A stretch of 32,000 nucleotides of DNA from an uncultured bacterium (GTDB lineage Bacteria; GCA-001730085), in the NCBI GenBank assembly GCA_964565945.1, contig CAZMGY010000035.1, positions 1-32,000 of the forward strand, read 5' to 3'. The translations under genes and the position numbers were made by a program. The notes beneath the pieces are model-generated. The model saw only the letters and a list, made by a program, of their open reading frames with translations, ran no database searches and was not told the origin of the DNA. Positions 8,043 to 19,522 of this stretch are shown in pieces (position 1 is the first letter of the stretch; the number at the start of each line of letters is the position of its first letter).

Positions 8043-9716
8043 ATGAGGTTACTGCTTTGTCTTTGTCTGCTGGCTCTTGTTTCTTGTTCGTCTCCTGCTG
8101 TTAAGGAGCGTCCGAACTATAATCAGTATCTTAAAATTGCTTTTCCTGGTGAACCACAGACCTTTAACCCCCTAGTGATTACCGATGCGGTCTCGAGCAA
8201 GGTCAGCAAACTATTGTTTGATGGATTAACTCGGATGAATGGCGAAACCTATGTTATGGAACCCTCTCTTGCTCGCCATTGGGAGTGTTCCGAAGATGGT
8301 TTAACCTGGACTTTTTATTTGCGATCCGATGTGAAGTGGTCCGATGGAGAAGCCTTTGATGCCGATGATGTTCTTTTTACCTTACAAGAGGTGATGTATG
8401 ATCCCCGTATTCCGGTAAGTGTCCGCGATGGTTTTCAGGTGGGGGGGCAAGCGATTCAATGGAGTAAGTTAGACGCTTTGACGGTGCAAGCGCACTTAGC
8501 CAAACCCTTTGCTTCCTTTGTGCGTCAGTTGGCTCTGCCGATTGTGCCAGAGCATCTTTTGCGTGACTTATGGCAACAAGGACAGTTGGCCAAAGCCTGG
8601 GGAACGGGCACTGACCCTAGGGACATTGTAGGAACAGGCCCCTTTCGCCTGACTCGTTTTCGTGTGGGAGAACATCTTGTTTTCACACGCAATGAGCTTT
8701 TTTGGAGAAAGGATGAGAACGGAGAAGCCTTGCCCTACTTGGAGGGTTTGATTGCGTTTGTGATTCCTGACTCTAATGCGGCCCTTTTGCGTTTTGAACG
8801 TGGGGAGCTCGACGTATTAGGTTTAAGCGGTGAGCATTGGACGTATTTGTCTAAGCGCAATGGTTCGTTTGATATCTATGAATTAGGTCCCAGTTGGGGG
8901 ACACAGTTTTTAACTTTACATTTGCAAGACAATGTTTTTGCCGCAAAGGATAAGCATCTGTATGATTGGTTTTCCAAGACAAAGTTTCGCCAGGCGCTCT
9001 CGTTTGTGCTTAATCGTGAGCGCATGATTAAGCAACTTATGTATGGTCAAGCGTATGCTCAATATGGACCGTTAAGTGTTGCTAATAAACTGTATTACGA
9101 AGAAAAGGGGGCACGCTACCCGCATAACCCCGCGCAAGCACTAGCTTTATTGCAGAGTGAAGGCTTTGTATTGAACGAGGGTCAGTTGCATGATAGCCAA
9201 GGTCGGCCTGTTCGCTTTAAGCTAATGGTGGGTAGCGAAAGTCTGGTAGGAATGAATTTGGCGCATATGATTCAACATGATTTTAAGCAAATCGGCATTG
9301 AGCTTGTGTTAAATCCAGTGCCTTTTTCGGTGATGATTCAAAAAGTGATGCAAAACCAAGACTGGCAAGCAATGCTATTGGGTTTAACTGGTGGTGTCGA
9401 TCCCTATGGTGGCAAAAATGTTTGGACCAGCCCAGGCCATTTGCATTTTTGGAATTTACGACCAGAGCAAATCTTTGCCTGGGAGACGCGGATCGATCAA
9501 ATTTTTGCCCAAGCTGAAGGTGAATTGGATCTGGAGAAACGCCAAAAACTTTACTCGGAATGGCAACAGTTGGTGGCTAAGGAGCTGCCTTTGATTTATA
9601 CGGTAATACCAGCAAGTTTGTTTGCCGTTCATTTTCGCATAAAGGGAGAAACGCCAAGTTCTTTAGGGGGTATTTTGCATAACGTGATCACGGTGCAAAT
9701 AGCCGATAATAGTTAA
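8043..9716 (+). CDS. ABC transporter substrate-binding lipoprotein, peptide/nickel (family 5, OppA/DppA-like)
   Basis: From the ATG at 8043 the N-terminus is MRLLLCLCLLALVSCSS, a signal peptide with lipobox LVSC. The body resembles SBP_bac_5 proteins. The 7980 start in the ORF track adds 21 non-signal residues and is unlikely. Confidence 0.85.
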   Translation: MRLLLCLCLLALVSCSSPAVKERPNYNQYLKIAFPGEPQTFNPLVITDAVSSKVSKLLFDGLTRMNGETYVMEPSLARHWECSEDGLTWTFYLRSDVKWSDGEAFDADDVLFTLQEVMYDPRIPVSVRDGFQVGGQAIQWSKLDALTVQAHLAKPFASFVRQLALPIVPEHLLRDLWQQGQLAKAWGTGTDPRDIVGTGPFRLTRFRVGEHLVFTRNELFWRKDENGEALPYLEGLIAFVIPDSNAALLRFERGELDVLGLSGEHWTYLSKRNGSFDIYELGPSWGTQFLTLHLQDNVFAAKDKHLYDWFSKTKFRQALSFVLNRERMIKQLMYGQAYAQYGPLSVANKLYYEEKGARYPHNPAQALALLQSEGFVLNEGQLHDSQGRPVRFKLMVGSESLVGMNLAHMIQHDFKQIGIELVLNPVPFSVMIQKVMQNQDWQAMLLGLTGGVDPYGGKNVWTSPGHLHFWNLRPEQIFAWETRIDQIFAQAEGELDLEKRQKLYSEWQQLVAKELPLIYTVIPASLFAVHFRIKGETPSSLGGILHNVITVQIADNS

Positions 9717-9737
9717 GCTGGATGATACAATGTTTTT

Positions 9738-10682
9738 ATGAAAAAGTATGTGGACAGTTGTATAACGCTTTGGTTCGTGACCGTGGTGAGCTTTGGGATT
9801 ATTCATATGGCTCCAGGAGACATGCTGTCGACGCTAGCACTAAGCCCGCATGTATCAGCGGAGTTTATTCAAGATTTAAAGGTGCGTTTTGGCTTGGATC
9901 AACCTCTTGTGCTACAGTATGTGCATTGGCTTAAGAATTTTTTTCTTGGTGATTGGGGTTATTCTTTTGTCTATCAGCAAGAGGTTTTTCACTTGATGCT
10001 GTCACGTCTAGGCCAAACGCTGCTATTGATGGGGAGCTCTTTGATTTTATCTTGGCTGGTGGTGATTCCTATGGCCTTATGGGCTGCACGTTATCGTAAG
10101 GGATGGGTCGATCGCATAGCTTCTATGTTATCGTTGAGTAGTCTAGCCATGCCTGTGTTTGTGTTGGCGATATTAGCGTTGTTGCTGGTGTCACAGACAG
10201 CGACTTGGCCGCTATCGGGAACGGTTCGTTTGGATTATGATTTTTTGCCTTGGTACCGTCAATTGGGGGATCGCGTACAGCATTTGCTTGTGCCTTGTTT
10301 GGTGCTCAGTTTTGTGAGTGTGGGGGGGGGGTTTCGCGTCATGCGAGCCTGTGTGGAAGAACAATTGCAGGCACCCTATGTGTTGGCGTTACGGGCACGA
10401 GGGCTTTCGGAAATCCAAATTTTGTTTAAACACGTATTAAGACATGTGCTCAATCCAGTGATAACCTTGGTGGGCTTGCAATTGCCTTCTTTGTTGTCGG
10501 GGGCGGCTTTTGTTGAAATTATTTTTGCTTGGCCGGGACTGGGATCTTTGATGCTGAAAGCTGTGATGCACCAAGATTTGTTTGTAGTGATGGCTAACCT
10601 TGTGCTAAGTGCGATATTGTTAGTGTTAGGAACCACTCTGTCGGATTGGGGGCTTAAATGGCTAGATCCTCGTATTCGCTAA
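9738..10682 (+). CDS. ABC transporter permease (OppB/DppB-like)
   Basis: It is a 314-aa polytopic protein. The N-terminus (WFVTVVSFGIIHMAPGD) and the EAA-like region (YVLALRARGLSE) are typical of the DppB family. Confidence 0.9.
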   Translation: MKKYVDSCITLWFVTVVSFGIIHMAPGDMLSTLALSPHVSAEFIQDLKVRFGLDQPLVLQYVHWLKNFFLGDWGYSFVYQQEVFHLMLSRLGQTLLLMGSSLILSWLVVIPMALWAARYRKGWVDRIASMLSLSSLAMPVFVLAILALLLVSQTATWPLSGTVRLDYDFLPWYRQLGDRVQHLLVPCLVLSFVSVGGGFRVMRACVEEQLQAPYVLALRARGLSEIQILFKHVLRHVLNPVITLVGLQLPSLLSGAAFVEIIFAWPGLGSLMLKAVMHQDLFVVMANLVLSAILLVLGTTLSDWGLKWLDPRIR

Positions 10683-11599
10683 CATTTAAGTCTGTTGTGT
10701 TCGTGTGTCTCGGTCTTTTGTTTGTTATAGGGCTCGTTGGAATTGATTTCTTTTGTCCTTATCGTTTTGACCAACAGTTTGAAGACCTAACCTATCAGGC
10801 ACCAGTTTTGTGGTCTAAGACTTCCGAATCTTGCCAATGGTTTGTGAGGGGTTATGAGTATAAGGTCTTAGGGATTTCGTGTGATTGGCATTTGTGGGGC
10901 AGTTCCTCGGATCAATCGATTTTTCTTTTGGGTTCAGATCAGTTTGGGCGCGATATTTTTTCGCGTTTGGTCTGGGCGTCAAGGATCTCTTTAGGTGTGG
11001 CATGTGCTGGAGTTGCTGTTACCTTTGTGTTAGGAATGGGCTTAGGGGGTGTAGCGGGCTATTGGGGTGGTTGCGTGGATCGATTGCTGATGAGAGTCTG
11101 TGAATTATTGATGAGTTTTCCTTTTTTCTTTGTGATGTTGGCTTTGCGTGGGGTATTCCCTAGCTCGATGAGCTCGGTGCAAACCTATGTTTGCATCGTG
11201 ATTTTAATGAGTCTTGTGGCTTGGCCTGGTTTGGCTCGTGTGATTCGAGGGATGGTTTTGTCGCTCAAGGAGCGTGAGTTTGTGGTGGCAATGCGTTGTG
11301 CGGGAATGAAGCAAAGCAGCATTATTCGCAAGTATGTGTTGCCGCATACTTATTCGTATGCGATTGTGGCGGCGTTACTCAACATTCCAGTCTATATCTT
11401 GGCCGAAGCTGGATTGAGTTTTTTTGGCTTGGGGATTCAGGAGCCGTATCCCAGCTGGGGCAATATGTTGCAGGCGGCAATGAATGTAACGGTGCTTCAA
11501 ATGTACCCTTGGATGTTGTTTCCTGGTGCCGCCTTGTTCGTTGTCGTTTTTGTTGTGTTAGCTTTGGGTGATTGTAGAGTAACAAAGGAGCAACGATGA
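10658..11599 (+). CDS. ABC transporter permease (OppC/DppC-like)
   Basis: It is a 313-aa polytopic protein with LGSDQFGRDIFSRLVWASR and EFVVAMRCAGMKQSSIIRKYVLPH motifs. It overlaps both neighbouring genes, which suggests translational coupling. Confidence 0.9.
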   Translation: MARSSYSLTFKSVVFVCLGLLFVIGLVGIDFFCPYRFDQQFEDLTYQAPVLWSKTSESCQWFVRGYEYKVLGISCDWHLWGSSSDQSIFLLGSDQFGRDIFSRLVWASRISLGVACAGVAVTFVLGMGLGGVAGYWGGCVDRLLMRVCELLMSFPFFFVMLALRGVFPSSMSSVQTYVCIVILMSLVAWPGLARVIRGMVLSLKEREFVVAMRCAGMKQSSIIRKYVLPHTYSYAIVAALLNIPVYILAEAGLSFFGLGIQEPYPSWGNMLQAAMNVTVLQMYPWMLFPGAALFVVVFVVLALGDCRVTKEQR

Positions 11600-12888
11600 T
11601 CACGGTCAAAAATGTGAGTGTTAAGTATTTATATTCGGATATCCAAGCTTTACAGAACCTATCGTTCTCTTTGGAACGTGGTGAGATTTTAGGAGTGATG
11701 GGCGATTCTGGTTCGGGCAAAAGCACCTTAGCGATGGCTCTAATGGGTTTATTGGACCCAACAAAAGTGGAGCAAACGGGAATTATTGCCAGTGAGGGGG
11801 AAGACACTGTAAGGGCCATGGTGTTTCAGGATCCAGTGTTAACCTTGGATCCATTGATGACAGTTGGTGCTCAGGTGGAGGAGCTCAAAACACTTTATGC
11901 CAGCCTTGTGGACCCCACAACCTCATTGTGGGATGAGGATCTTTTTACGGCTGTAGGGCTGTCGTATATTGCAATCAAAAACAAATATCCACACCAACTC
12001 AGTGGCGGTATGTGTCAGCGGGTGGGTGTTGCGATGGCCTTAATGCGCCAGCCGCATCTATTGATTGTCGATGAGCCGACTACTGCCTTAGATCGTGAAA
12101 CGCGAGAGCAGATTTTGGCTCTTTTGCAAAATGTGACCCAAAAGTTTAATATGGCGACGGTGTTGATTAGTCATGATCCCGAAGTAATTGAACATGTGGC
12201 GAATAAGACTTTGTATTTGCAAGAAGGACGTCAGTCGGGCTCTTTTAGGGTTGACAAGGATTTATCTCCATTGAGTCGAAGAGGCGAGAGTAGCGCAGCT
12301 GTTTTGTTAGACGTGAAGAACCTTAACTGCCAGATCAAGGGGCAAACCATTTTAAGCAATGTAACGTTGTCATTGAAGGAGGGGGAAATTGTAGGTTTGT
12401 TGGGCCGAAGTGGTTCTGGCAAAACTACTTTATTGCGCTGTTTACTTAACTTAGTTCCTTTTGAAGGGCAGATTGATTATAAAGGATCTTCGCATGGCCT
12501 TCAGCCGATTTTTCAAAATCCACGTGCTTCATTGAATCCCAAAATGACGGTTCGCTCTCAACTCGAAGATATTCGTAAGCTTGCAGGGCAAGGCTCTTTG
12601 GTTGAGGTGATGGAGGATGTCCAACTGGAGCGCTCTTACCTGGATGCGTATCCCCCGCAGTTGAGTGGTGGTCAATGTCAGCGGGTGGCGATTGCGCGGG
12701 CTCTTTTGTTGCAACCCAAAATCCTTTTGGCGGATGAGCCCACGGCGTCTTTGGATGCATCTTTGCAGGTCAATGTATTGAATCTTTTGCATTACTTATG
12801 TCGCCAGAGGTGTATGAGTATGTTTTTGGTTTCGCATGACACGAAGGTGCTGAGACATTATGTGGACAATGTTTATGTTTTAGAATAA
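11596..12888 (+). CDS. Fused double ABC ATPase (OppD/OppF-like, two nucleotide-binding domains in 430 aa)
   Basis: NBD1 has GDSGSGKST, VFQDP, LSGGMCQRV, LLIVDEPT and ISHD. NBD2 has GRSGSGKTT, IFQNP, LSGGQCQRV, ILLADEPT and VSHD. SD aaggag lies at 11585-11590, and the ATGA overlaps the upstream stop. Confidence 0.9.
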   Translation: MITVKNVSVKYLYSDIQALQNLSFSLERGEILGVMGDSGSGKSTLAMALMGLLDPTKVEQTGIIASEGEDTVRAMVFQDPVLTLDPLMTVGAQVEELKTLYASLVDPTTSLWDEDLFTAVGLSYIAIKNKYPHQLSGGMCQRVGVAMALMRQPHLLIVDEPTTALDRETREQILALLQNVTQKFNMATVLISHDPEVIEHVANKTLYLQEGRQSGSFRVDKDLSPLSRRGESSAAVLLDVKNLNCQIKGQTILSNVTLSLKEGEIVGLLGRSGSGKTTLLRCLLNLVPFEGQIDYKGSSHGLQPIFQNPRASLNPKMTVRSQLEDIRKLAGQGSLVEVMEDVQLERSYLDAYPPQLSGGQCQRVAIARALLLQPKILLADEPTASLDASLQVNVLNLLHYLCRQRCMSMFLVSHDTKVLRHYVDNVYVLE

Positions 12889-12894
12889 GTTGAA
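12874..12894 (+). repeat. Left copy of a perfect 21-bp direct repeat (tatgttttagaataagttgaa)
   Basis: It is identical to 14509-14529. It covers the last four codons and the TAA stop of the ABC ATPase gene, plus 6 nt beyond. Confidence 0.95.
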
Positions 12895-14508
12895 TAGTTT
12901 TACATCTATATATGTTCTAAAATAACGGTTTTAGGATCTGAATATTTATCAAGTAACAAGAATATATATGAAGTAATTTCAGAATATTTCACTATTTATG
13001 TCAGCAGTAGCTTTTTTGAAATAATCTTCAAGAGGGTTAGAAGGTTCGACTCCTATCTTATCTCATTCCGCTTGATTGAAAGGCATTTTTTTAACTCCCT
13101 TAACGCCATATATGTCAGAATCCTGAGTCCGATTCCGATATTCGGGGCATCTGAAATACACTCAATTACATACGATAAACGTTTTTTTTGCTTTGTCAAT
13201 GTTTGTCAACAGCCGAATTATCAGTTGGGCTATATCCATCAGTTGCGATAGACTCGTATGAGGGTTTTTGTCTAACGAAGTAAACACGCGAGAGCAAGAA
13301 GTTTTGCCTACACAGGATTCAATGAGCTTATTCTATCCTCAAATTTTTGAATGATCGAAGATAAAGCATATTTTATAAGTAGAGAACGTAATGGGTTGTT
13401 TTCTGAAGATAAAGTTGTAATGTTAGCGAGTTTATCAAGGAAAGAATTTATTGCAATGTCAGAAGGATTTTCTTTTGGTATAGAGTAAGTAAAATATCTG
13501 TCAAAAATACTCCTTAGTGCATAGGCGCAGTTTATTGCGCTACTCCATAAAGTTTAGTGACGAAAAGCCTATAGTATATAGTAGCTTTATTTGTGGGAAA
13601 AGGTTTTTTAGTAAGTCAATATACTTTGATGATTGCGTTTCTCCCTTATGTTCCAAAGCAGAATTAATTGTTCCTTTTATTTTTGTGAATAACTTCATAA
13701 AATTCAGGATCAAACACCTGTATGCCCACTATTAGCAGAAGGTCTACAGTATTAATCTCTCTTTTTTGTAGTGGGAGAAAGGATTTTAAACCATTTTTGT
13801 AATGGTTAACTTTTCGGAGTGTTGGTATTTCTTTTTGGAAAGAATGACTAAAAAATTCTTTAAATTCATTCCACTATTTTTCAGGTAAAGGGATTTCAGA
13901 AACTTCAAGTACTTCGGCAACAGCTTGTAACCATAAGTCTAGTAAATTTTTATTTGATACGGCAGGTAAGTCTAGATAGATTTAGATTATTTTTCTAAAA
14001 ACTGTTCCCCTAATTTTTCATTAGTACCTGCATAGCTTTCTGAAAGAGATGAAGTAAGTATCTCTTTATCAAAGGCAAGTAGATATCTAATAGATTCAAA
14101 ATCGGCTATATGCTTGATCAGTTTGAAAACAGCTTGTAAACATAAATCTAGTTTTATCAAGACGATCTATATCATCTACTATGACCAAAAATCACTCCGA
14201 ATTAGCCTTGAGTTTCTCTTTAAATAGAGTTTCGTTTTTTCAAAACATCAGGATTATACAAGAAAGCCTCTAGAGCACCCCCAAACCCTACATCAGAATC
14301 GAAAGCTTTTTCAAGCGTATCAAAAAAATCAAATAATAACTTATTAATATTCCCACAAATCCATGAATTAAACAGAATAATCCCTAGAATGTTCATTGTT
14401 ATCCAGATGTTTTATGATGACCTCTTAGCCTAACTATTTATTGAAGCCATAATTATATACTAATTGTGAAGGAGGTCAAAATGAAAGGAAAAAATAGACG
14501 TCAGAGCA
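12895..14508. mobile_element. Remnant of an inserted element or genomic islet (AT-rich, no intact ORF, no recombinase)
   Basis: It is bracketed by the 21-bp direct repeat. Hand-counted lines give about 25-32% GC, against 55% for a line of the adjacent ATPase gene. The only recognisable coding signal is a decayed KAP NTPase gene on the minus strand. Confidence 0.55.
13311..14479 (-). pseudogene. KAP-family P-loop NTPase pseudogene (multiple frameshifts and in-frame stops)
   Basis: My own minus-strand translation gives the following fragments. 14479-14434: PPSQLVYNYGFNK* (decayed Walker A). 14396-14220: MNILGIILFNSWICGNINKLLFDFFDTLEKAF.... 14185-14150: VIVDDIDRLDKT (Walker-B-like). 14145-13987: LCLQAVFKLIKHIADFESIRYLLAFDKEILTSSLSESYAGTNEKLGEQFLEK*. 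13993-13664: KII*IYLDLPAVS...EK*WNEFKEFF...TLRKVNHYKNGLKSFLPLQKREINTVDLLLIVGIQVFDPEFYEVIHKNK. 13502-13311: DRYFTYSIPKENPSDIAINSFLDKL.... The order and motifs match the KAP NTPase family as I remember it. Decayed 3' sequence may continue toward 12895. Confidence 0.7.
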
Positions 14509-14529
14509 TATGTTTTAGAATAAGTTGAA
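14509..14529 (+). repeat. Right copy of the perfect 21-bp direct repeat
   Basis: tatgttttagaataagttgaa is identical to 12874-12894. Confidence 0.95.
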
Positions 14530-14644
14530 GGGTTTAAAATTTGTTTTGGCCGTTCCTTATTTGGCTACTAAAGTTGTGCTTCAGGTTTTGGCACAGCGAG
14601 ACGATGTGTAGCAACGAGAAATGTCCTACAAAGGTGTAGCTACC

Positions 14645-15072
14645 TCATAGGGCTTGGTGATGTCGTCGTACGTGGATGCCAAAAGTACAGTAGTCAAAAG
14701 TCTTAAGATGATGAATTTGATTAAAACATCTCACCACGATCCTACGCGAATATCGGGCACATTGTTCGTAATAGTTGTGAAGCTTGTGGGCACCGTAAAA
14801 CCAACCAACACCGATACCCTTGGCTAGCTCGACCGCGAAAAGCCAATAGATGGTGATGTGATTGATTATATTATATTGAGGTAATAGAGTTAAGTATAGG
14901 TGGTGAATACTCTGCCGCCAATAAAGGCGACTAGACAAATGTAGAGCATAATAAAGAAAAGCTCCACCAGAGTATTTGCCCACCAAGTAAGAAACACAGC
15001 AGACATTGCCTGATCCGATAGCGGATCAGGCAGCGGCGAAGATAAAGATCCCTCATGAGAACCATTGATCAT
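14645..15072 (-). pseudogene. Possible frameshifted small hydrophobic/His-rich membrane protein gene (two overlapping minus-strand ORFs)
   Basis: ORFs 15072-14890 and 14986-14645 overlap in different frames. The first encodes a hydrophobic stretch (MSAVFLTWWANTLVELFFIMLYICLVAFIGG from the ATG at 15006). The second has a TTG start with no SD and is His-rich (AHKLHNYY, IHHLK, HVRRHH). I recognise no family. Confidence 0.3.
15007..15032 (-). terminator. Perfect 11-bp inverted repeat (tgcctgatccg-atag-cggatcaggca); possible terminator of the 1153-aa gene or a protein-binding palindrome
   Basis: It forms an 11-bp perfect stem with a 4-nt loop, 69 nt downstream of the stop at 15101 (minus strand). 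The downstream minus-strand sequence atgtctgctgtgtttctt is only moderately T-rich. Confidence 0.35.
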
Positions 15073-15100
15073 GTGCTTATGTCATAAATATGAAATACCC

Positions 15101-18100
15101 TTAGCGATATTTTTGTGCACCTATCGTTCCTTGTAGGTTTTTCAGATAGGTTTTAGTTTTGAGATATTTGAGCTGTTTGGCCACAAAGGCTCTGCGTTCT
15201 TTTAAGTTCATCTCGTCCATGTTGTTTTGATTATGCTTCTGCTGCATAAACTCATCGATATACTTGAGTTGTTTTTGGAAAAACTTGGTGTCGATCCGTT
15301 GTTTTTCCTTAAGTCTTTCTTGGTACCATTTGCTTGCAAGGACTGAATCGGGGCTGAAGAGTTTACGAATCGCAGGGTTTTGCAGTGTCTTGCCCTTATA
15401 GTTTCCCTCGGCCATGATATGAATCAGAGCTTTGAGTGGTGGGCACAAATCCTGAACGGCTCTATCCTCGAGATATCCTTGAGCAACACGTTGGTGTGTG
15501 CTCATAAGATTCTGAATGCCTTCGACAAAAAGCTTTTGGTTTTGTTTTTCGGGACGAAGCATCTCTTCTGAGAACACAATATTGGGATTGTTGAAAATCC
15601 GTCCCATAAACAAGTTCACAAATTTAAGTGTGATACGGTATCCTAAAATCCTTGCTGGGACAACTTTGCCTTCGAATTCAAAGTCATTCACTTTTTCAAG
15701 ACAGCCCTGATCTATCAGAAATTGGGGGTTTTGTTCCTCGGGTGTCATGCGAGACCAAATTTCGGGAATGAGGAGGCTAATATCGTGAGCGACTTCCACA
15801 TTGGGTCCTAGAACACCTGCGGCTGAGCTGAAACCACTGTAGCCCGTGACTATATAGGACAAAAAGGCATTATTGAGATCCCCAGCTGCGGTTAAAGCAT
15901 TGAAAGGGCCCTTTGTGAGGGCCCCTTCCGAGCCAAACCCAGTGGTTGAGGGAGATTTTCCAGTAACACTGGAAATAAAATCCATGAACAATTCCGGCAG
16001 TTCTTGGTAGTGAATCGGATTATAGACGGCCAGTGCAGGAACATTATGTTTGGGGTCGGGGGCATTGTTGCGACGCCCTGGCAAAACTGCATTTACTGGG
16101 TAGATCACGGATTGTTCGATGGGAATTTGGCGATGGAGGCGTGTGGCCATCCGTGCGATATATCCTTTGAGGGGATTGACCATGTCGGATCTGTTTTGCA
16201 AATAGCGAGGGTTTTTGGTGGGTATTCCATCCACGATTCGAGGATGAGACGAAATGGAGTAAAATTCGCTGGGGTTATCGGTCAGTGAATCCTGGATTAA
16301 TTGTTGCATAGGTTCGGAGTACTTTTCGACTTGCAACACATTTGTAGCCAGCGCTTGCACTTGTTGTTGACTAAAGGGTTCAAAGTTACACAAAAAGACT
16401 CCCCCCTGTTGAGATAAGTCTTGTTCTGTCGTTACGTCTTGACCGGGATAAATTGCGTCATCGGGTCGCTGAAACAAACGGTATTCGCAATTTTGAACCA
16501 ATTTGACGCTTGGATGGGGCCACTGTGGTGATCGATAGGGTAATAGATGATGAGGTATCACAATGGAGCAGGTGATGTCGTCTTCGACCTGGAGTTTTTC
16601 CGAGATGTAAAAATCATAGCGTGTATTGAAGACGCGCCACGCTCCGGCGCTGTCAAAACCAACGCGAAAGCAGTAAGAGGTTAAAGGACGGTTACGGTAT
16701 TTGAGCTCATGCCCTGTGCTACCATTGATGATATCGACGCTAAAGTGGGGCTTCCAGTTGCCTTTCCATTCGGGCTTGTACAAACGTTTCACGGCAAAAA
16801 TAATCGTTTTAATGTGAGGTGGCAAAGAATTGAGCCATTGGTTATAATCATCTGTGAATTCGGACGAAGGTGTTAAAAGTTTGATTACAGAGCCGAGACT
16901 GCGTTCTGGGCTCAAAATCGGACGTGACTTGCGCGGTTTGCTATGTTGTTTGCAAAAACGTTTCGAAAAATCATAGGCCGTGATTATGTCAATGAGCGCA
17001 AAATCTTGTTCGATGTCGTTGACATAGATGGGGCCGATCAACATGGTGTCGGTGAGAGATTTGGAGATTTCCGACTTGCCTCCTCCAGAAACAGTGCAGG
17101 GTTTATGGCATAAGGTCCCTTCGGCTTTCGTTCCGACCAACTTCCAACGATCTTGATGCCCGTGTTTTTTCATTTGAATGCGAAACCCAGAGGGAAGCAT
17201 ATATGTTTTTTGAGGATCCAAGGGAAGTTGTTGCTGTGTTTTATCTTTGTTCCAGCTAACAGTTCCTGTCATCAGGCTAAACGAAGAATTTTCAGGAACA
17301 AAAACCAGTTCTGGGTGGGTTGTGTCGATGCCGTAATCTTCGGGTTTAAAGTGAATCTGTTCGGCATAGAGTTTTTTGAGTTGGCTCAATTTGGCTTTTG
17401 TTTTCGATTCGCTCCACTTATGTTGAAATTCTTGACCTAGATCGAAGTTAGGAAATGCAATGGCTCCTCCAGAATGTTCTTCTTCGACTAATCCAAATAA
17501 GTTAGCCGAGTAACTAATTTGAGTTTTGACCTCTTTTTTGCAATAACCAAAATAGTTATCGGCAATGATGGTTATGATAACACCTTGGGCATCACGACAG
17601 GTAATTTTGAAAGCCGATCCTTCGTTGTATTTTTCGTCGGCTTTGGACCAGCACATGCCATCGCGGTTTTGCCTTGCAGTGGCTTTGCTGACATGAGGCA
17701 GGCCGAGTTGTTTTTTGGTTAGGTGGCTGATATGGGGGGCCAAAATGACACAGCCAGTGTGTCCGGTCCAATGTTCGGGATCCAGTGCCGCATCGTTTTG
17801 TGGCATAAAAGGGTCGCCAGCATTGCCAAAAATAGACTCAACAAAGTCGAGGTTGCTAACGAGACCTCCAGGAGCAAAAAAACGAATTTCCAGGGATTTT
17901 GCACTTTGCCAACCAGGAACTTCGGGGCAAACTTTAGGTCGAAGCAATAAGGATAAAAACAAATCGGCTTGTTCAGCTTGACTGGCCGTGAAAGGAACGC
18001 GCATTTCTTCGACGGGAGGATTGAGAGCCGCCTGAAGAAGGTGCACAAAGGTAACTTTGGGAACGGCTTTTTTATCGTTAGCAATCGGTAAGCCCCCTTC

Positions 18101-18562
18101 GACCACATGAAAGCACCCTTTGGTTGTTCGGCGGTCGTGGCGAGGGTTATGGATTACGCCTTGAGGAACACGGTAAGATTTGACATATTCTGATTCAAAG
18201 CGGTTGGCATCAGGCGGTAAAGACATCTGTCGTGCCACGCCATGGCGAGCCAGTAAAAAAGTGAGAGAAGGCAATTGAGTACCCTTGAATTCAGGAATCT
18301 CCTTAAAGTAGTTTTCGAGAAACTGATGGATCCTACAATCCGCAGGACAATAGTAATTTGACAAGAGGCGTGTACGTTCTTGGTGGTGGCGCAAGAAAGG
18401 TTCGGCCATATCAAAAAACTTATTGTCTAAATTCTTTTTGAAGGGAGGATATCCTTGTGCTTTCAATTTGATATTAATGTAATGGATTAACTCTTCTTCA
18501 CTTGGACTAGGTGAAGAAGGATTGGAAAAACCTAATCGCTCGTTTAAATCATGCTCGTACAT
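15101..18562 (-). CDS. Large soluble conserved protein (1153 aa), tentatively PPi-dependent phosphoenolpyruvate carboxykinase (PEP carboxytransphosphorylase) family
   Basis: It is a single uninterrupted ORF with SD aaggag (18569-18574) 6 nt before the ATG. There is no TM segment or signal peptide. It contains a phosphate-loop-like CTVSGGGKSEISKS (17069-17089) and ADNYFGYCKKE. The ~1150-aa length and the absence of motifs from other ~1150-aa enzyme families fit my recollection of PPi-type PEPCK. I cannot align it here. Confidence 0.4.
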   Translation of the reverse strand: MYEHDLNERLGFSNPSSPSPSEEELIHYINIKLKAQGYPPFKKNLDNKFFDMAEPFLRHHQERTRLLSNYYCPADCRIHQFLENYFKEIPEFKGTQLPSLTFLLARHGVARQMSLPPDANRFESEYVKSYRVPQGVIHNPRHDRRTTKGCFHVVEGGLPIANDKKAVPKVTFVHLLQAALNPPVEEMRVPFTASQAEQADLFLSLLLRPKVCPEVPGWQSAKSLEIRFFAPGGLVSNLDFVESIFGNAGDPFMPQNDAALDPEHWTGHTGCVILAPHISHLTKKQLGLPHVSKATARQNRDGMCWSKADEKYNEGSAFKITCRDAQGVIITIIADNYFGYCKKEVKTQISYSANLFGLVEEEHSGGAIAFPNFDLGQEFQHKWSESKTKAKLSQLKKLYAEQIHFKPEDYGIDTTHPELVFVPENSSFSLMTGTVSWNKDKTQQQLPLDPQKTYMLPSGFRIQMKKHGHQDRWKLVGTKAEGTLCHKPCTVSGGGKSEISKSLTDTMLIGPIYVNDIEQDFALIDIITAYDFSKRFCKQHSKPRKSRPILSPERSLGSVIKLLTPSSEFTDDYNQWLNSLPPHIKTIIFAVKRLYKPEWKGNWKPHFSVDIINGSTGHELKYRNRPLTSYCFRVGFDSAGAWRVFNTRYDFYISEKLQVEDDITCSIVIPHHLLPYRSPQWPHPSVKLVQNCEYRLFQRPDDAIYPGQDVTTEQDLSQQGGVFLCNFEPFSQQQVQALATNVLQVEKYSEPMQQLIQDSLTDNPSEFYSISSHPRIVDGIPTKNPRYLQNRSDMVNPLKGYIARMATRLHRQIPIEQSVIYPVNAVLPGRRNNAPDPKHNVPALAVYNPIHYQELPELFMDFISSVTGKSPSTTGFGSEGALTKGPFNALTAAGDLNNAFLSYIVTGYSGFSSAAGVLGPNVEVAHDISLLIPEIWSRMTPEEQNPQFLIDQGCLEKVNDFEFEGKVVPARILGYRITLKFVNLFMGRIFNNPNIVFSEEMLRPEKQNQKLFVEGIQNLMSTHQRVAQGYLEDRAVQDLCPPLKALIHIMAEGNYKGKTLQNPAIRKLFSPDSVLASKWYQERLKEKQRIDTKFFQKQLKYIDEFMQQKHNQNNMDEMNLKERRAFVAKQLKYLKTKTYLKNLQGTIGAQKYR

Positions 18563-18599
18563 AATAAACTCCTTTGAATGTAAGTTAAGTTATTTTTGT

Positions 18600-18628
18600 A
18601 TTATAGTCTATTTGACACCGTTCTTTAA
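18600..18628 (-). promoter_or_regulatory. Candidate promoter for the 1153-aa gene
   Basis: On the minus strand, TATAAT lies at 18605-18600 and a weak -35 ttaaag at 18628-18623, with a 17-nt spacer. It overlaps the divergent plus-strand promoter. Confidence 0.3.
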
Positions 18629-18640
18629 AGTCCTTAGAAT
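18612..18640 (+). promoter_or_regulatory. Sigma-70-type promoter of the 18686-22139 operon
   Basis: TTGACA (18612-18617), a 17-nt spacer and TAGAAT (18635-18640) lie about 45 nt upstream of the first start codon. Confidence 0.6.
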
Positions 18641-18685
18641 GTACCCAGTTGTTAAAGGCTATTTATAAGAGGTGCTTGAGGGGTA

Positions 18686-19522
18686 ATGATAATGATGTTT
18701 AATGACATGTTAAAATTAAAGAAGCCCTATGTGGTTGTAGGTCTTATCATTTTGGTGGCTGCCACTCACTTTGAACTTGTTCGACACAACGACATGAAGT
18801 GGCAAAAAAAATATTCTGATCTCCAGGAGCAACATCAAAACACCGTGCGCGAGGCGGATAAGTTGCAAAAACGCTTGGAAACTATGGAGCAATTTTTGGA
18901 GGAAACCAACGTTCGTCAAGTGATTGAAGCCAATGAACACAAGGTTGCTCAAATGGCTCAGTTGCGACAACAGCTTTTAGGCTTTCAAAGTGTAGAGGCT
19001 CAATTGCGTCGTCGCTTAAGTCAGCTGGAAGAAGTGTTTGAGCACAAAGATGCCGAATGGCAAAAAGATTTAGATCGTCAGGAGAAAAATCTTCGCCAAA
19101 AAATTAGTGTTGAGCAGGGGCGTGTGCAAAAATTACGCAACGACTTGCAAGCGTTAACCCAAAGACCCCTTTATAATTTGTCCCAGAAATATGTTGCCAA
19201 TGGTGTCGATATTTCCGATTTAGTGGTAAGGCTTCGTTTTTTGAAGTACTTGTCTGAGCATGTTGAGGGCAGTATGGTGGCCAAAAAAGTAGCCTACAAA
19301 CAATTACTGGACGATTTTAGATCGGTCTTAAAGAGTGATGCCTATGTTCGCAAATTGAAACCAGTCAAAATATACCCAGATGTTCCAATCATGGCCGATT
19401 TCAAAGGTAGATATATCGACAAAAAAACCTTGAACGAAGATAATTATGTAGGTGAAAGTAATCAGCGTATCGCTGAACAATTGGGATATTTACTTGACTA
19501 TATCAAGATGACATATGTATGA
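18686..19522 (+). CDS. Membrane-anchored coiled-coil protein of unknown function
   Basis: It has an N-terminal TM segment (KPYVVVGLIILVAATHF), then ~130 aa of heptad-like Q/E/K/L-rich sequence, then an unassigned ~110-aa C-terminal domain. The start may be ATG 18692 or 18695, which have better spacing from gagggg at 18678-18683. The stop overlaps the next gene's start (ATGA). Confidence 0.7.
   Translation: MIMMFNDMLKLKKPYVVVGLIILVAATHFELVRHNDMKWQKKYSDLQEQHQNTVREADKLQKRLETMEQFLEETNVRQVIEANEHKVAQMAQLRQQLLGFQSVEAQLRRRLSQLEEVFEHKDAEWQKDLDRQEKNLRQKISVEQGRVQKLRNDLQALTQRPLYNLSQKYVANGVDISDLVVRLRFLKYLSEHVEGSMVAKKVAYKQLLDDFRSVLKSDAYVRKLKPVKIYPDVPIMADFKGRYIDKKTLNEDNYVGESNQRIAEQLGYLLDYIKMTYV

What the first reader, a model, noticed from the sequence alone, without database searches (positions are those of the whole stretch)
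12874..14529. Perfect 21-bp direct repeat brackets a 1.6-kb AT-rich insert at the 3' end of the ABC ATPase gene (att-like integration scar)
The sequence tatgttttagaataagttgaa occurs at 12874-12894, where it covers the last four codons (Y-V-L-E), the TAA stop and 6 further nt of the 11596-12888 ATPase gene. It occurs again, identically, at 14509-14529. A 32-kb window has about 5e8 position pairs and there are about 4e12 possible 21-mers, so a chance match is expected about 1e-4 times. The bracketed segment (12895-14508) is visibly more AT-rich: lines I counted by hand gave 25-32% GC, against 55% in a line of the neighbouring gene. It has no intact ORF. This is the classic signature of site-specific integration into the 3' end of a gene, where the element carries a copy of the gene end so that the target stays intact (attL/attR). 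Here the element has since decayed, and no integrase is left.
Basis: partly seen in the sequence, partly recalled or inferred. Interest (0 to 1): 0.7.

Follow-up and report, generated by a model that had tools for sequence, protein, structure and literature searches.

The report
Repeat-flanked dead phage-defence gene fragment
A perfect 21-base repeat brackets a 1.6-kb AT-rich piece of foreign DNA just after a transporter gene; the piece is a broken fragment of a PifA-type phage-defence gene, most likely a scar of an old insertion, and it is real but ordinary.

Summary
TATGTTTTAGAATAAGTTGAA occurs exactly twice (12874-12894 and 14509-14529). It is the longest exact direct repeat in the window; 200 composition-preserving shuffles never exceeded 19. 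The left copy covers the ATPase codons Y-V-L-E, the stop and six more bases. The bracketed 1614 bp has 32% GC against 46% in the flanks, and the best-fit composition boundaries (12857, 14547) fall next to the two copies.

The insert is not featureless. Its minus strand is a decayed KAP-family P-loop NTPase of the PifA anti-phage type. It matches positions 79-489 of a 728-position family profile firmly and about 615 weakly. It has at least five frameshifts and several stops. Walker B is intact, but the N-terminal 78 residues (Walker A) and the C-terminal 110 or more are missing.

No integrase remnant, tRNA or terminal inverted repeats were found. All ~25 public assemblies of this organism are over 99.9% identical and carry the insert. 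The nearest relatives (52-70% protein identity) have lost synteny, so no empty site could be examined.

Some intact PifA-like genes in metagenomes also sit between long direct repeats.

Best reading (about 0.5): junction duplication from an old integration, followed by deletions. A recombinase-free one-step fragment insertion is a serious rival.

The parts
11596..12888 (+). Fused double ABC ATPase (430 aa), the last gene of an Opp/Nik-type peptide/nickel ABC transporter operon. It is the host gene whose 3' end lies in the left repeat copy.
   Evidence: Pfam ABC_tran x2, E 6.6e-56. NCBIfam NikD/NikE/OppF-like. The upstream SBP_bac_5 and two permeases are.
12874..12894 (+). Left copy of the perfect 21-bp direct repeat: the last four ATPase codons (YVLE), TAA and GTTGAA.
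   Evidence: The YVL part is native ATPase sequence, because the closest relative ends ...DRVLILQQGKMD*.
12911..12925 (+). Possible third, degenerate copy of the first 15 nt of the repeat (TATGTTCTAAAATAA, 13/15), lying 16 bp inside the insert.
   Evidence: It is the only 13/15 match in the window apart from the two exact copies. Significance is marginal.
12895..14508 (.). Bracketed AT-rich insert: 1614 bp, 32.3% GC, no ORF longer than 72 aa.
13278..14381 (-). Firmly identified part of a decayed PifA-like KAP P-loop NTPase pseudogene (family-profile positions 79-489 of 728). It has at least 5 frameshifts and about 5-6 in-frame stops.
   Evidence: - Pfam KAP_NTPase, E 5e-22, 78.9 bits.
- PADLOC PifA, E 4e-30, profile positions 177-460.
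- tblastn with P0274 is colinear over residues 74-484, E 2.8e-34.
- Profile of 46 full-length homologues.
12927..13277 (-). Probable continuation of the same pseudogene (profile positions ~506-615). The last ~113 profile positions have no room before the left repeat.
   Evidence: A weak but colinear hmmsearch hit: 4.5 bits, i-E 0.014 among 30 translated frames.
14153..14188 (-). Intact Walker B segment, LVIVDDIDRLDK, of the KAP NTPase remnant.
13919..13943 (+). Internal 25-nt direct repeat, copy 1. It codes LDLWLQAV on the minus strand and is native to the gene.
   Evidence: 23/25 identity with 14128-14152 and unrelated flanks.
14128..14152 (+). Internal 25-nt direct repeat, copy 2. It sits at the frameshift just after Walker B and looks like a short templated patch duplication.
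14382..14508 (.). 127 bp between the KAP remnant and the right repeat, with no similarity to the KAP N-terminus or Walker A. It holds a sigma70-like promoter on the minus strand (14479-14452, 11/12 match).
14509..14529 (+). Right copy of the perfect 21-bp direct repeat.
   Evidence: Flank identity beyond the repeat is 11/40 on the left and 16/40 on the right, with 7 of the first 11 bases on the right matching.
14530..15100 (.). Unassigned 571-bp spacer (42.7% GC) between the right repeat and the PEPCK stop. Under the insertion model this is the native downstream flank of the ATPase.
   Evidence: No Pfam, PADLOC, PHROG, Rfam or tRNA hit. GC.
15101..18562 (-). PPi-dependent PEP carboxykinase (1153 aa), the convergent neighbouring gene.
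   Evidence: The precomputed Pfam annotation of the identical gene on L001 is PF26300 PEPCK_PPi_lobe_2; my own Pfam scan of this ORF found no family. Homologues appear.

Best explanation
The two 21-mers are the left and right junctions of one old insertion of foreign DNA immediately after the ATPase coding sequence. The most likely mechanism is site-specific (att-type) integration of a small defence-gene element.

Inferred steps:
- The recombination core overlapped the last four codons, the stop and six more bases of the ATPase gene.
- The core was therefore duplicated and the gene stayed intact.
- The cargo was a PifA-like KAP P-loop NTPase, a single-gene anti-phage defence protein.
- The element became fixed in the population.
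- The defence gene was then inactivated and eroded by frameshifts, stops and at least two deletions. These removed its first ~78 codons, its last ~110 codons and whatever recombinase or accessory genes were present.
- About 127 bp of non-KAP element DNA was left next to the right junction.

Shown directly:
- the repeat and its position on the stop codon;
- the composition block that coincides with the repeat copies;
- the identity and decay state of the pseudogene;
- the absence of a recombinase;
- fixation in all available assemblies.

Inferred only:
- that a recombinase made the duplication;
- that the element was once larger.
For: - The perfect, sharp-edged 21-bp repeat is far beyond chance.
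- The left copy spans the stop codon, so the ATPase product is unchanged.
- The composition change-points at 12857 and 14547 coincide with the two copies.
- The insert is a PifA/KAP NTPase remnant.
- This family has experimental anti-phage activity and is linked to recombinase-bearing mobile DNA (PMC13552941).
- Homologues sit among transposases and other defence-type genes.
- Of 52 metagenomic loci with full-length PifA-like genes, 6 (5 independent) have exact flanking direct repeats of 29-80 bp. The longest inverted match in any locus was 21 bp.
- In L103, a 51-bp repeat duplicates the start of a desaturase-like host gene around a 2.9-kb, recombinase-free KAP cassette of lower GC.
- In L075, the repeat lies in the 3' end of a large serine recombinase gene.
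- The insert is single-copy and always in the same context, on 21 contigs.
Against: - No integrase or resolvase remnant was found in any frame of 12889-13700 or 14397-15100.
- No tRNA or other RNA target was found.
- No empty site was found. All assemblies with an ATPase at least 90% identical carry the insert. The nearest relatives have no synteny.
- The 21-mer is absent from the metagenome and viral collections.
- The insert has no DNA-level relative on plasmids or phages.
- The insert is essentially one gene fragment missing both ends. The att model therefore needs extra deletions that spared both cores.
- The repeat is still 21/21 although the DNA between the copies has at least 5 frameshifts and about 5-6 stops. 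My rough estimate of ~0.1 substitutions per site gives only about a 5-30% chance that roughly 30 unconstrained repeat bases stayed unchanged. This is inference, not a measurement.
- Low GC is also typical of ordinary intergenic DNA here (21-43%).
Confidence: 0.5

Rival explanations
1. One-step, recombinase-independent insertion of a gene fragment with a 21-bp target duplication. Replication or repair left the chromosome just after ...GTTGAA. It then copied or captured about 1.6 kb of an already truncated PifA-like gene from an ectopic donor. It resumed 21 bp upstream of the departure point, which duplicated the 21-mer. The possible routes are template switching, a gap-repair 'templated insertion', or fill-in of a staggered break. 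The fragment was dead on arrival.
For: - The insert is almost wholly one gene fragment lacking both its 5' (~78 codons, Walker A) and 3' (~110 codons) ends.
- No recombinase, terminal inverted repeats or other element features were found.
- A second short ectopic duplication (25 nt, 23/25) sits inside the same pseudogene at a frameshift. Short templated duplications therefore do arise here without an integrase.
Against: - I know of no well-documented bacterial process that gives kilobase insertions with ~20-bp target duplications (own knowledge).
- No donor copy is visible: the 58-aa ORF of the insert occurs only in this one context.
- 127 bp of non-KAP DNA lies between the fragment and the right repeat.
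- It does not explain why the duplication sits exactly on a gene end. Intact relatives show repeat-flanked cassettes at gene ends.
Confidence: 0.28
2. The right 21-mer is a later short 'patch' copy of the ATPase gene end, dropped into an older resident pseudogene region. On this reading the repeat does not mark the borders of the insertion at all.
For: - The internal 25-nt patch duplication in the same region is a precedent.
- An intact KAP gene would have started at about 14584 or beyond, to the right of the right copy.
- The fitted GC boundary (14547, range 14517-14590) lies slightly beyond the repeat.
Against: - It requires two coincidences: the source lies exactly at the left edge of the AT-rich block, and the target lies within ~40 bp of its right edge.
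- No KAP N-terminal similarity was found to the right of the repeat, even with a 46-sequence full-length profile.
Confidence: 0.07
3. The repeat is a chance match or an assembly artefact.
For: The 21-mer is AT-rich (19% GC), and AT-rich sequences repeat more easily by chance.
Against: - 0 of 200 local-composition shuffles reached 20 nt, and 0 of 100 shuffles matched the pattern.
- More than 20 independent assemblies span both copies with identical spacing. These are k=31 assemblies, from my memory of how Logan is built.
Confidence: 0.02

Closest known systems
Integrative elements and prophages that insert into the 3' end of a protein-coding gene and restore it (e.g. e14 and phage 21 in icd of E. 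coli; own knowledge)
   Same: A direct repeat flanks foreign DNA. One copy overlaps the end of an intact host gene, and the composition differs from the flanks.
   Different: - No integrase is present, and no empty site or excision product is known.
- The repeat is only 21 bp.
- The content is a single gene fragment truncated at both ends rather than an element.
PifA of the F plasmid / PifA family in PADLOC (KAP P-loop NTPase, single-gene anti-phage defence)
   Same: - The conceptual translation matches PADLOC PifA (E 4e-30) and Pfam KAP_NTPase (E 5e-22).
- Full-length homologues P0274 and P0275 match PifA end to end.
- The Walker B segment DDIDRLDK is conserved.
   Different: - It is a pseudogene with at least 5 frameshifts and multiple stops.
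- Walker A and both termini are missing.
- It is at most 41% identical to any homologue found.
Repeat-flanked PifA-like cassettes seen here in metagenomes (L103, L089, L075/L076)
   Same: - A KAP gene of the same family lies between exact direct repeats.
- L103 duplicates the end of a host gene and has no recombinase inside.
- GC is lower than in the flanks.
   Different: - Those genes are intact and the cassettes are 2.9-4.8 kb with an accessory gene.
- Their repeats are 35-51 bp exact, with diverged extensions.
- L103 duplicates a 5' end, not a 3' end.
- There is no sequence relation between their repeats and the 21-mer.
Transposon or IS target-site duplication
   Same: A direct repeat of target sequence lies on both sides of an insert.
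   Different: - 21 bp is longer than the 2-15 bp I know for IS elements, transposons and casposons (own knowledge).
- No terminal inverted repeats and no transposase remnant were found.

Membership tests
Integrated element with attL/attR (recombinase-mediated genomic islet) | Direct repeat of the core at both ends of the inserted DNA | tested here: met
   Exact 21-mer at 12874-12894 and 14509-14529. The composition block 12857-14547 coincides with it.
Integrated element with attL/attR (recombinase-mediated genomic islet) | Integrase or recombinase gene, or a recognisable remnant, inside the element next to an att site | tested here: not met
   Translations of 12889-13700 (six frames for Pfam, three minus frames for PADLOC) and of 14397-15100 (minus frames) give no Pfam or PADLOC recombinase hit. 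The insert is filled by the KAP remnant.
Integrated element with attL/attR (recombinase-mediated genomic islet) | Empty site (attB) in related genomes, or an excised circle (attP) | tested here: inconclusive
   - All ~25 contigs of this organism carry the insert.
- The nearest relatives (52% ATPase identity, 70% PEPCK identity) lack synteny.
- The 21-mer is absent from the metagenome and viral collections.
- Reads could not be searched.
Integrated element with attL/attR (recombinase-mediated genomic islet) | Target gene left intact by the duplicated core | tested here: met
   The ATPase ORF ends with YVLE-TAA inside the left copy. YVL aligns with the relative's C-terminus.
KAP P-loop NTPase / PifA defence family | Significant match to the family profile | tested here: met
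   - Pfam PF07693: 78.9 bits against a cut-off of 20.
- PADLOC PifA: E 4.3e-30.
- My own 46-sequence profile: positions 79-489.
KAP P-loop NTPase / PifA defence family | Walker A (GxWGxGKT/S) and Walker B (DDxDR) motifs | tested here: not met
   Walker B (LVIVDDIDRLDK) is present. Walker A is undetectable in any frame of 14300-14760. A relic, VYNYGFNK, sits at the right spacing but is not significant.
KAP P-loop NTPase / PifA defence family | Intact open reading frame of ~700 aa | tested here: not met
   At least 5 frameshifts and about 5-6 in-frame stops; both termini are missing. It is a pseudogene, not a functional member.
IS element / transposon | Terminal inverted repeats and a transposase; short target duplication | tested here: not met
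   No inverted repeat at the insert ends. No transposase domain. The duplication is 21 bp.
tRNA/tmRNA-targeting genomic island | Repeat derived from the 3' end of a tRNA or tmRNA gene | tested here: not met
   ARAGORN found no tRNA or tmRNA, and Rfam found no family, in the window.
Xer/dif-dependent integrating element (IMEX) | Flanking dif-like 28-bp sites at the replication terminus | tested here: inconclusive
   - GC skew stays positive across 9000-19000, so there is no sign of a terminus.
- By eye, the 21-mer shows no dif-like dyad.
- No dif model for this lineage was available.

The most novel reading that the evidence does not exclude
PifA-like KAP NTPase genes may travel as small, recombinase-free cassettes. 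These would insert at the ends of host genes and duplicate 20-70 bp of the gene terminus, as seen in the window and in L103 and perhaps in L089. The cassettes would be moved in trans, or by a short-homology mechanism not yet described. The window would then hold a decayed example.
Probability: 0.12. Interest if true: 0.55.

Novelty: new member of a known kind. Interest (0 to 1): 0.25.

Why it matters
It documents a fixed, decaying remnant of a horizontally acquired single-gene anti-phage system (PifA/KAP NTPase) in an uncultured lineage with no close sequenced relatives. It also shows that the apparently empty AT-rich spacer is a datable pseudogene.

The wider point is only suggested here. About a tenth of intact PifA-like genes in metagenomes sit between long direct repeats, and some of these have no recombinase inside. 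This could be followed up to learn how single-gene defence cassettes move. For this locus alone the biological consequence is small: the ATPase is unchanged and the defence gene is dead.

Tried and rejected
- **Empty-site search.** The genome-contig scan with the ATPase found only distant ABC ATPases, at most 33% identical. Homologue searches with the ATPase and PEPCK, followed by contig look-ups, found either over 99.9% identical contigs with the insert or relatives without synteny.
- **21-mer in public collections.** No match in metagenome or viral contigs.
- **DNA relatives of the insert.** None in plasmids or phages.
- **KAP gene running across the right repeat.** Weak tblastn hits at 14827-14696 to residues 39-98 were not confirmed by two profiles. 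They duplicate the FNPW motif that is really at 14372, so I rejected them.
- **Circular permutation** (KAP N-terminus at the left end of the insert). No profile support.
- **Small ORFs next to the insert as homologues of cassette accessory genes.** No similarity between the 113-aa and 60-aa ORFs and the L103 or L075 small ORFs.
- **Integron cassette.** GTTGAAT at the left copy fits GTTRRRY. That is a 7-bp degenerate motif, the right copy does not fit, and there is no attC or IntI. Rejected.
- **dif/Xer site.** No terminus signal and no dyad.
- **RNA gene target.** None found.
- **Longer decayed duplication of the ATPase 3' end.** The flanks of the two copies are at background identity (11/40 and 16/40), so this was rejected.
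- **Organism identity.** The SRA accession numbers appear in no paper and no source names the proteins. The taxon remains unknown. Biosynthetic genes in the window argue against a strongly reduced symbiont.
Full report
**Observation**

The 21-mer TATGTTTTAGAATAAGTTGAA is present exactly at 12874-12894 and 14509-14529. It has no further copy in the window, even with three mismatches allowed. It is the longest exact direct repeat in the window. In 200 shuffles that preserve composition in 200-bp blocks, the longest repeat was 13-19 nt.

Translation of 12862-12894 reads VDNVYVLE*VE. The left copy is therefore the last four codons, the stop and six further bases of ORF 11596-12888.

This ORF is a fused double ABC ATPase (Pfam ABC_tran twice; NikD/NikE/OppF-like). 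It closes an operon made of a family-5 solute-binding protein and two permeases.

The bracketed 1614 bp has 32.3% GC against 42.9% for the window. A two-breakpoint likelihood fit places the low-GC block at 12857-14547, within 20-40 bp of the two copies. Outside the 21 bases the two copies are at background identity: 11/40 on the left and 16/40 on the right. Only the first 11 bases to the right are mildly similar, at 7/11.

**What the insert is**

The minus strand encodes a decayed KAP-family P-loop NTPase.
- A hand-joined translation matches Pfam KAP_NTPase (E 5e-22) and the PADLOC PifA model (E 4e-30, profile positions 177-460).
- An 81-residue open stretch (13553-13311, minus strand) retrieved two full-length 729- and 737-aa homologues from the 1.8-billion-protein library. 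Both are KAP NTPases and match PifA end to end.
- tblastn with P0274 gives a colinear chain (E 2.8e-34):

| P0274 residues | Window coordinates |
|---|---|
| 74-99 | 14381-14304 |
| 157-326 | 14212-13673 (part better read in another frame, 14139-13990) |
| 349-413 | 13683-13492 |
| 409-484 | 13505-13278 |

This chain implies at least five frameshifts and about five or six in-frame stops. Walker B (LVIVDDIDRLDK, 14188-14153) is intact.

I built a profile from 46 full-length homologues (728 positions). It confirms positions 79-489. It also adds a weak but colinear extension, positions ~506-615 at 13254-12927.

The first 78 positions, which include the strongly conserved Walker A, are undetectable in any frame between 14300 and 15100. 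Only 127 bp separate the remnant from the right repeat. The last ~113 positions have no room before the left repeat.

The insert is therefore essentially one gene fragment lacking both ends, plus 127 bp of unassigned DNA.

No integrase, resolvase or transposase remnant was found. No tRNA or Rfam family was found. No terminal inverted repeats were found.

**Comparative evidence**

The ATPase cluster at 90% identity holds five variants. Look-ups of these variants and of a 58-aa ORF inside the insert returned about 25 contigs from many sequencing runs.
- They are all over 99.9% identical to the window.
- Every contig long enough to show both copies has them 1635 bp apart, in the same context.
- The insert is therefore fixed and single-copy.

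The next relatives are too distant to help.
- The next ATPase relative (52% identity) is followed by an SNF transporter gene.
- PEPCK relatives at 70% and 59% identity have other neighbours.
- The species-representative genome collection has nothing close.
- An empty site therefore cannot be examined with the available data.

The 21-mer is absent from the metagenome and viral collections. The insert has no DNA relative on plasmids or phages.

The relative's true C-terminus is ...DRVLILQQGKMD*, read after a frameshift in that assembly. This shows that YVL of the repeat is native ATPase sequence, and that the window's ATPase ends about five residues earlier.

**The gene family elsewhere**

KAP NTPases have recently been shown to be anti-phage proteins linked to recombinases on mobile DNA (PMC13552941). 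Two homologues examined here lie among transposases, AAA_15 and STAND-type genes.

I fetched 80 metagenomic loci with full-length PifA-like genes. In the 52 loci with both flanks present, I looked for exact repeats shared by the two flanks.
- Six loci (five independent) have direct repeats of 29-80 bp. The longest inverted match in any locus was 21 bp.
- In L103, a 51-bp repeat duplicates the start codon and first 17 codons of a desaturase-like gene. It surrounds a 2.9-kb, lower-GC cassette holding a lipoprotein-like ORF and the KAP gene, with no recombinase inside.
- In L089, a ~90-bp imperfect repeat flanks the KAP gene plus an AbiV-HEPN gene.
- In L075/L076, the repeat lies inside the 3' end of a large serine recombinase gene and again after the KAP gene.
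- L073's repeat resembles a tRNA 3' end by eye (GGTTCGAAT, T-loop-like), though ARAGORN called no tRNA in L073.

Repeat-bounded insertion is thus a recurrent way in which this family arrives. In at least one case it duplicates a host gene end.

**Mechanism**

The repeat is sharp-edged and sits on a gene end. It coincides with both composition boundaries and brackets a defence-type gene. These facts are best explained by the two copies being the junctions of one insertion event.

The att-type reading (integration through a core overlapping the ATPase end, then deletional decay) fits the analogues. It also explains the 127 bp of non-KAP DNA at the right end, as the residue left by an internal deletion that removed the gene's 5' end together with neighbouring genes. 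I give it about 0.5.

Four points weigh against it:
- there is no recombinase trace;
- there is no empty site or intact relative;
- further deletions that spared both cores are required;
- the repeat is perfect while the pseudogene between the copies is heavily decayed.

On the last point, I made a rough estimate from about 5-6 stops in about 340 aligned codons, assuming that ~5% of random substitutions create stops. This gives ~0.1 substitutions per site, and hence only a 5-30% chance that about 30 unconstrained repeat bases stayed unchanged. This is inference, not a measurement.

The main rival (about 0.28) is a one-step, recombinase-free insertion of an already truncated gene fragment with a 21-bp duplication of the target, for example by template switching. 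A second short duplication supports this rival. It is 25 nt long (23/25 identical), at 13919-13943 and 14128-14152, with one copy exactly at a frameshift after Walker B. It shows that ~20-nt ectopic copying has occurred in this very segment.

A later patch copy unrelated to the insert borders (about 0.07) needs two positional coincidences. Chance or artefact is effectively excluded.

**Comparison and verdict**

The feature works like the attL/attR scar of an islet inserted at a gene's 3' end. It cannot be filed as a demonstrated member of that class, because the recombinase criterion is not met and the empty-site criterion is untestable. The cargo belongs to the PifA/KAP NTPase family by sequence, but it is a non-functional fragment.

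This is a new example of a known kind of feature, of modest interest. The only potentially new lead is the set of recombinase-free, repeat-bounded PifA-like cassettes at gene ends.

Noticed in passing
window 13919-13943 and 14128-14152: A 25-nt direct repeat (23/25 identical, unrelated flanks) lies inside the KAP pseudogene. The second copy sits at the frameshift just after Walker B and adds about 7 nt relative to homologues. It looks like a short templated patch duplication.
   Followed up: partly
window 12911-12925: TATGTTCTAAAATAA is a 13/15 match to the first 15 nt of the 21-mer, only 16 bp inside the insert. It would again read Y-V-L-K-stop. It is the only such match in the window, and its significance is marginal.
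   Followed up: partly
window 14530-15100: This 571-bp spacer has near-genomic GC (42.7%) and no Pfam, PADLOC, PHROG, Rfam or tRNA hit. It holds ORFs of 113 aa (14645-14986, minus strand, TTG start) and 60 aa (14890-15072, minus strand). Its nature is unexplained.
   Followed up: partly
window 14452-14528: A near-consensus sigma70-like promoter lies on the minus strand (TTGACC-16-TATAAT, 11/12) and points into the KAP remnant. On the plus strand the same spot reads AGGAGG-N7-ATG of a 15-codon ORF (MKGKNRRQSICFRIS*) that ends inside the right 21-mer.
   Followed up: no
L103 5287-8280; L089 3377-8241; L075 3414-6509; L073 27-7545; L063 1074-12164: Intact PifA-like KAP NTPase genes in metagenomic contigs lie between exact direct repeats of 29-80 bp.
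- L103 duplicates the 5' end of a desaturase-like host gene around a recombinase-free 2.9-kb cassette.
- L075's repeat lies in the 3' end of a large serine recombinase gene.
- L089 pairs the KAP gene with an AbiV-HEPN gene.
   Followed up: partly
L014 2700-2890: The closest ATPase relative (52% identity, ENA contig) is called with a wrong C-terminus because of a frameshift near its 3' end. Read in the other frame it ends ...DRVLILQQGKMD*, five residues beyond the point where the window's ATPase stops.
   Followed up: partly
window 1-32000 and loci L001, L015-L042, L125: About 25 contigs from at least five groups of sequencing runs differ from the window by only 1-8 substitutions over up to 21 kb. 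Even so, no GTDB species representative or named protein is close, so this is a widespread but uncharacterised organism. The window carries threonine, aspartate and citramalate biosynthesis genes, so the genome is not strongly reduced.
   Followed up: partly
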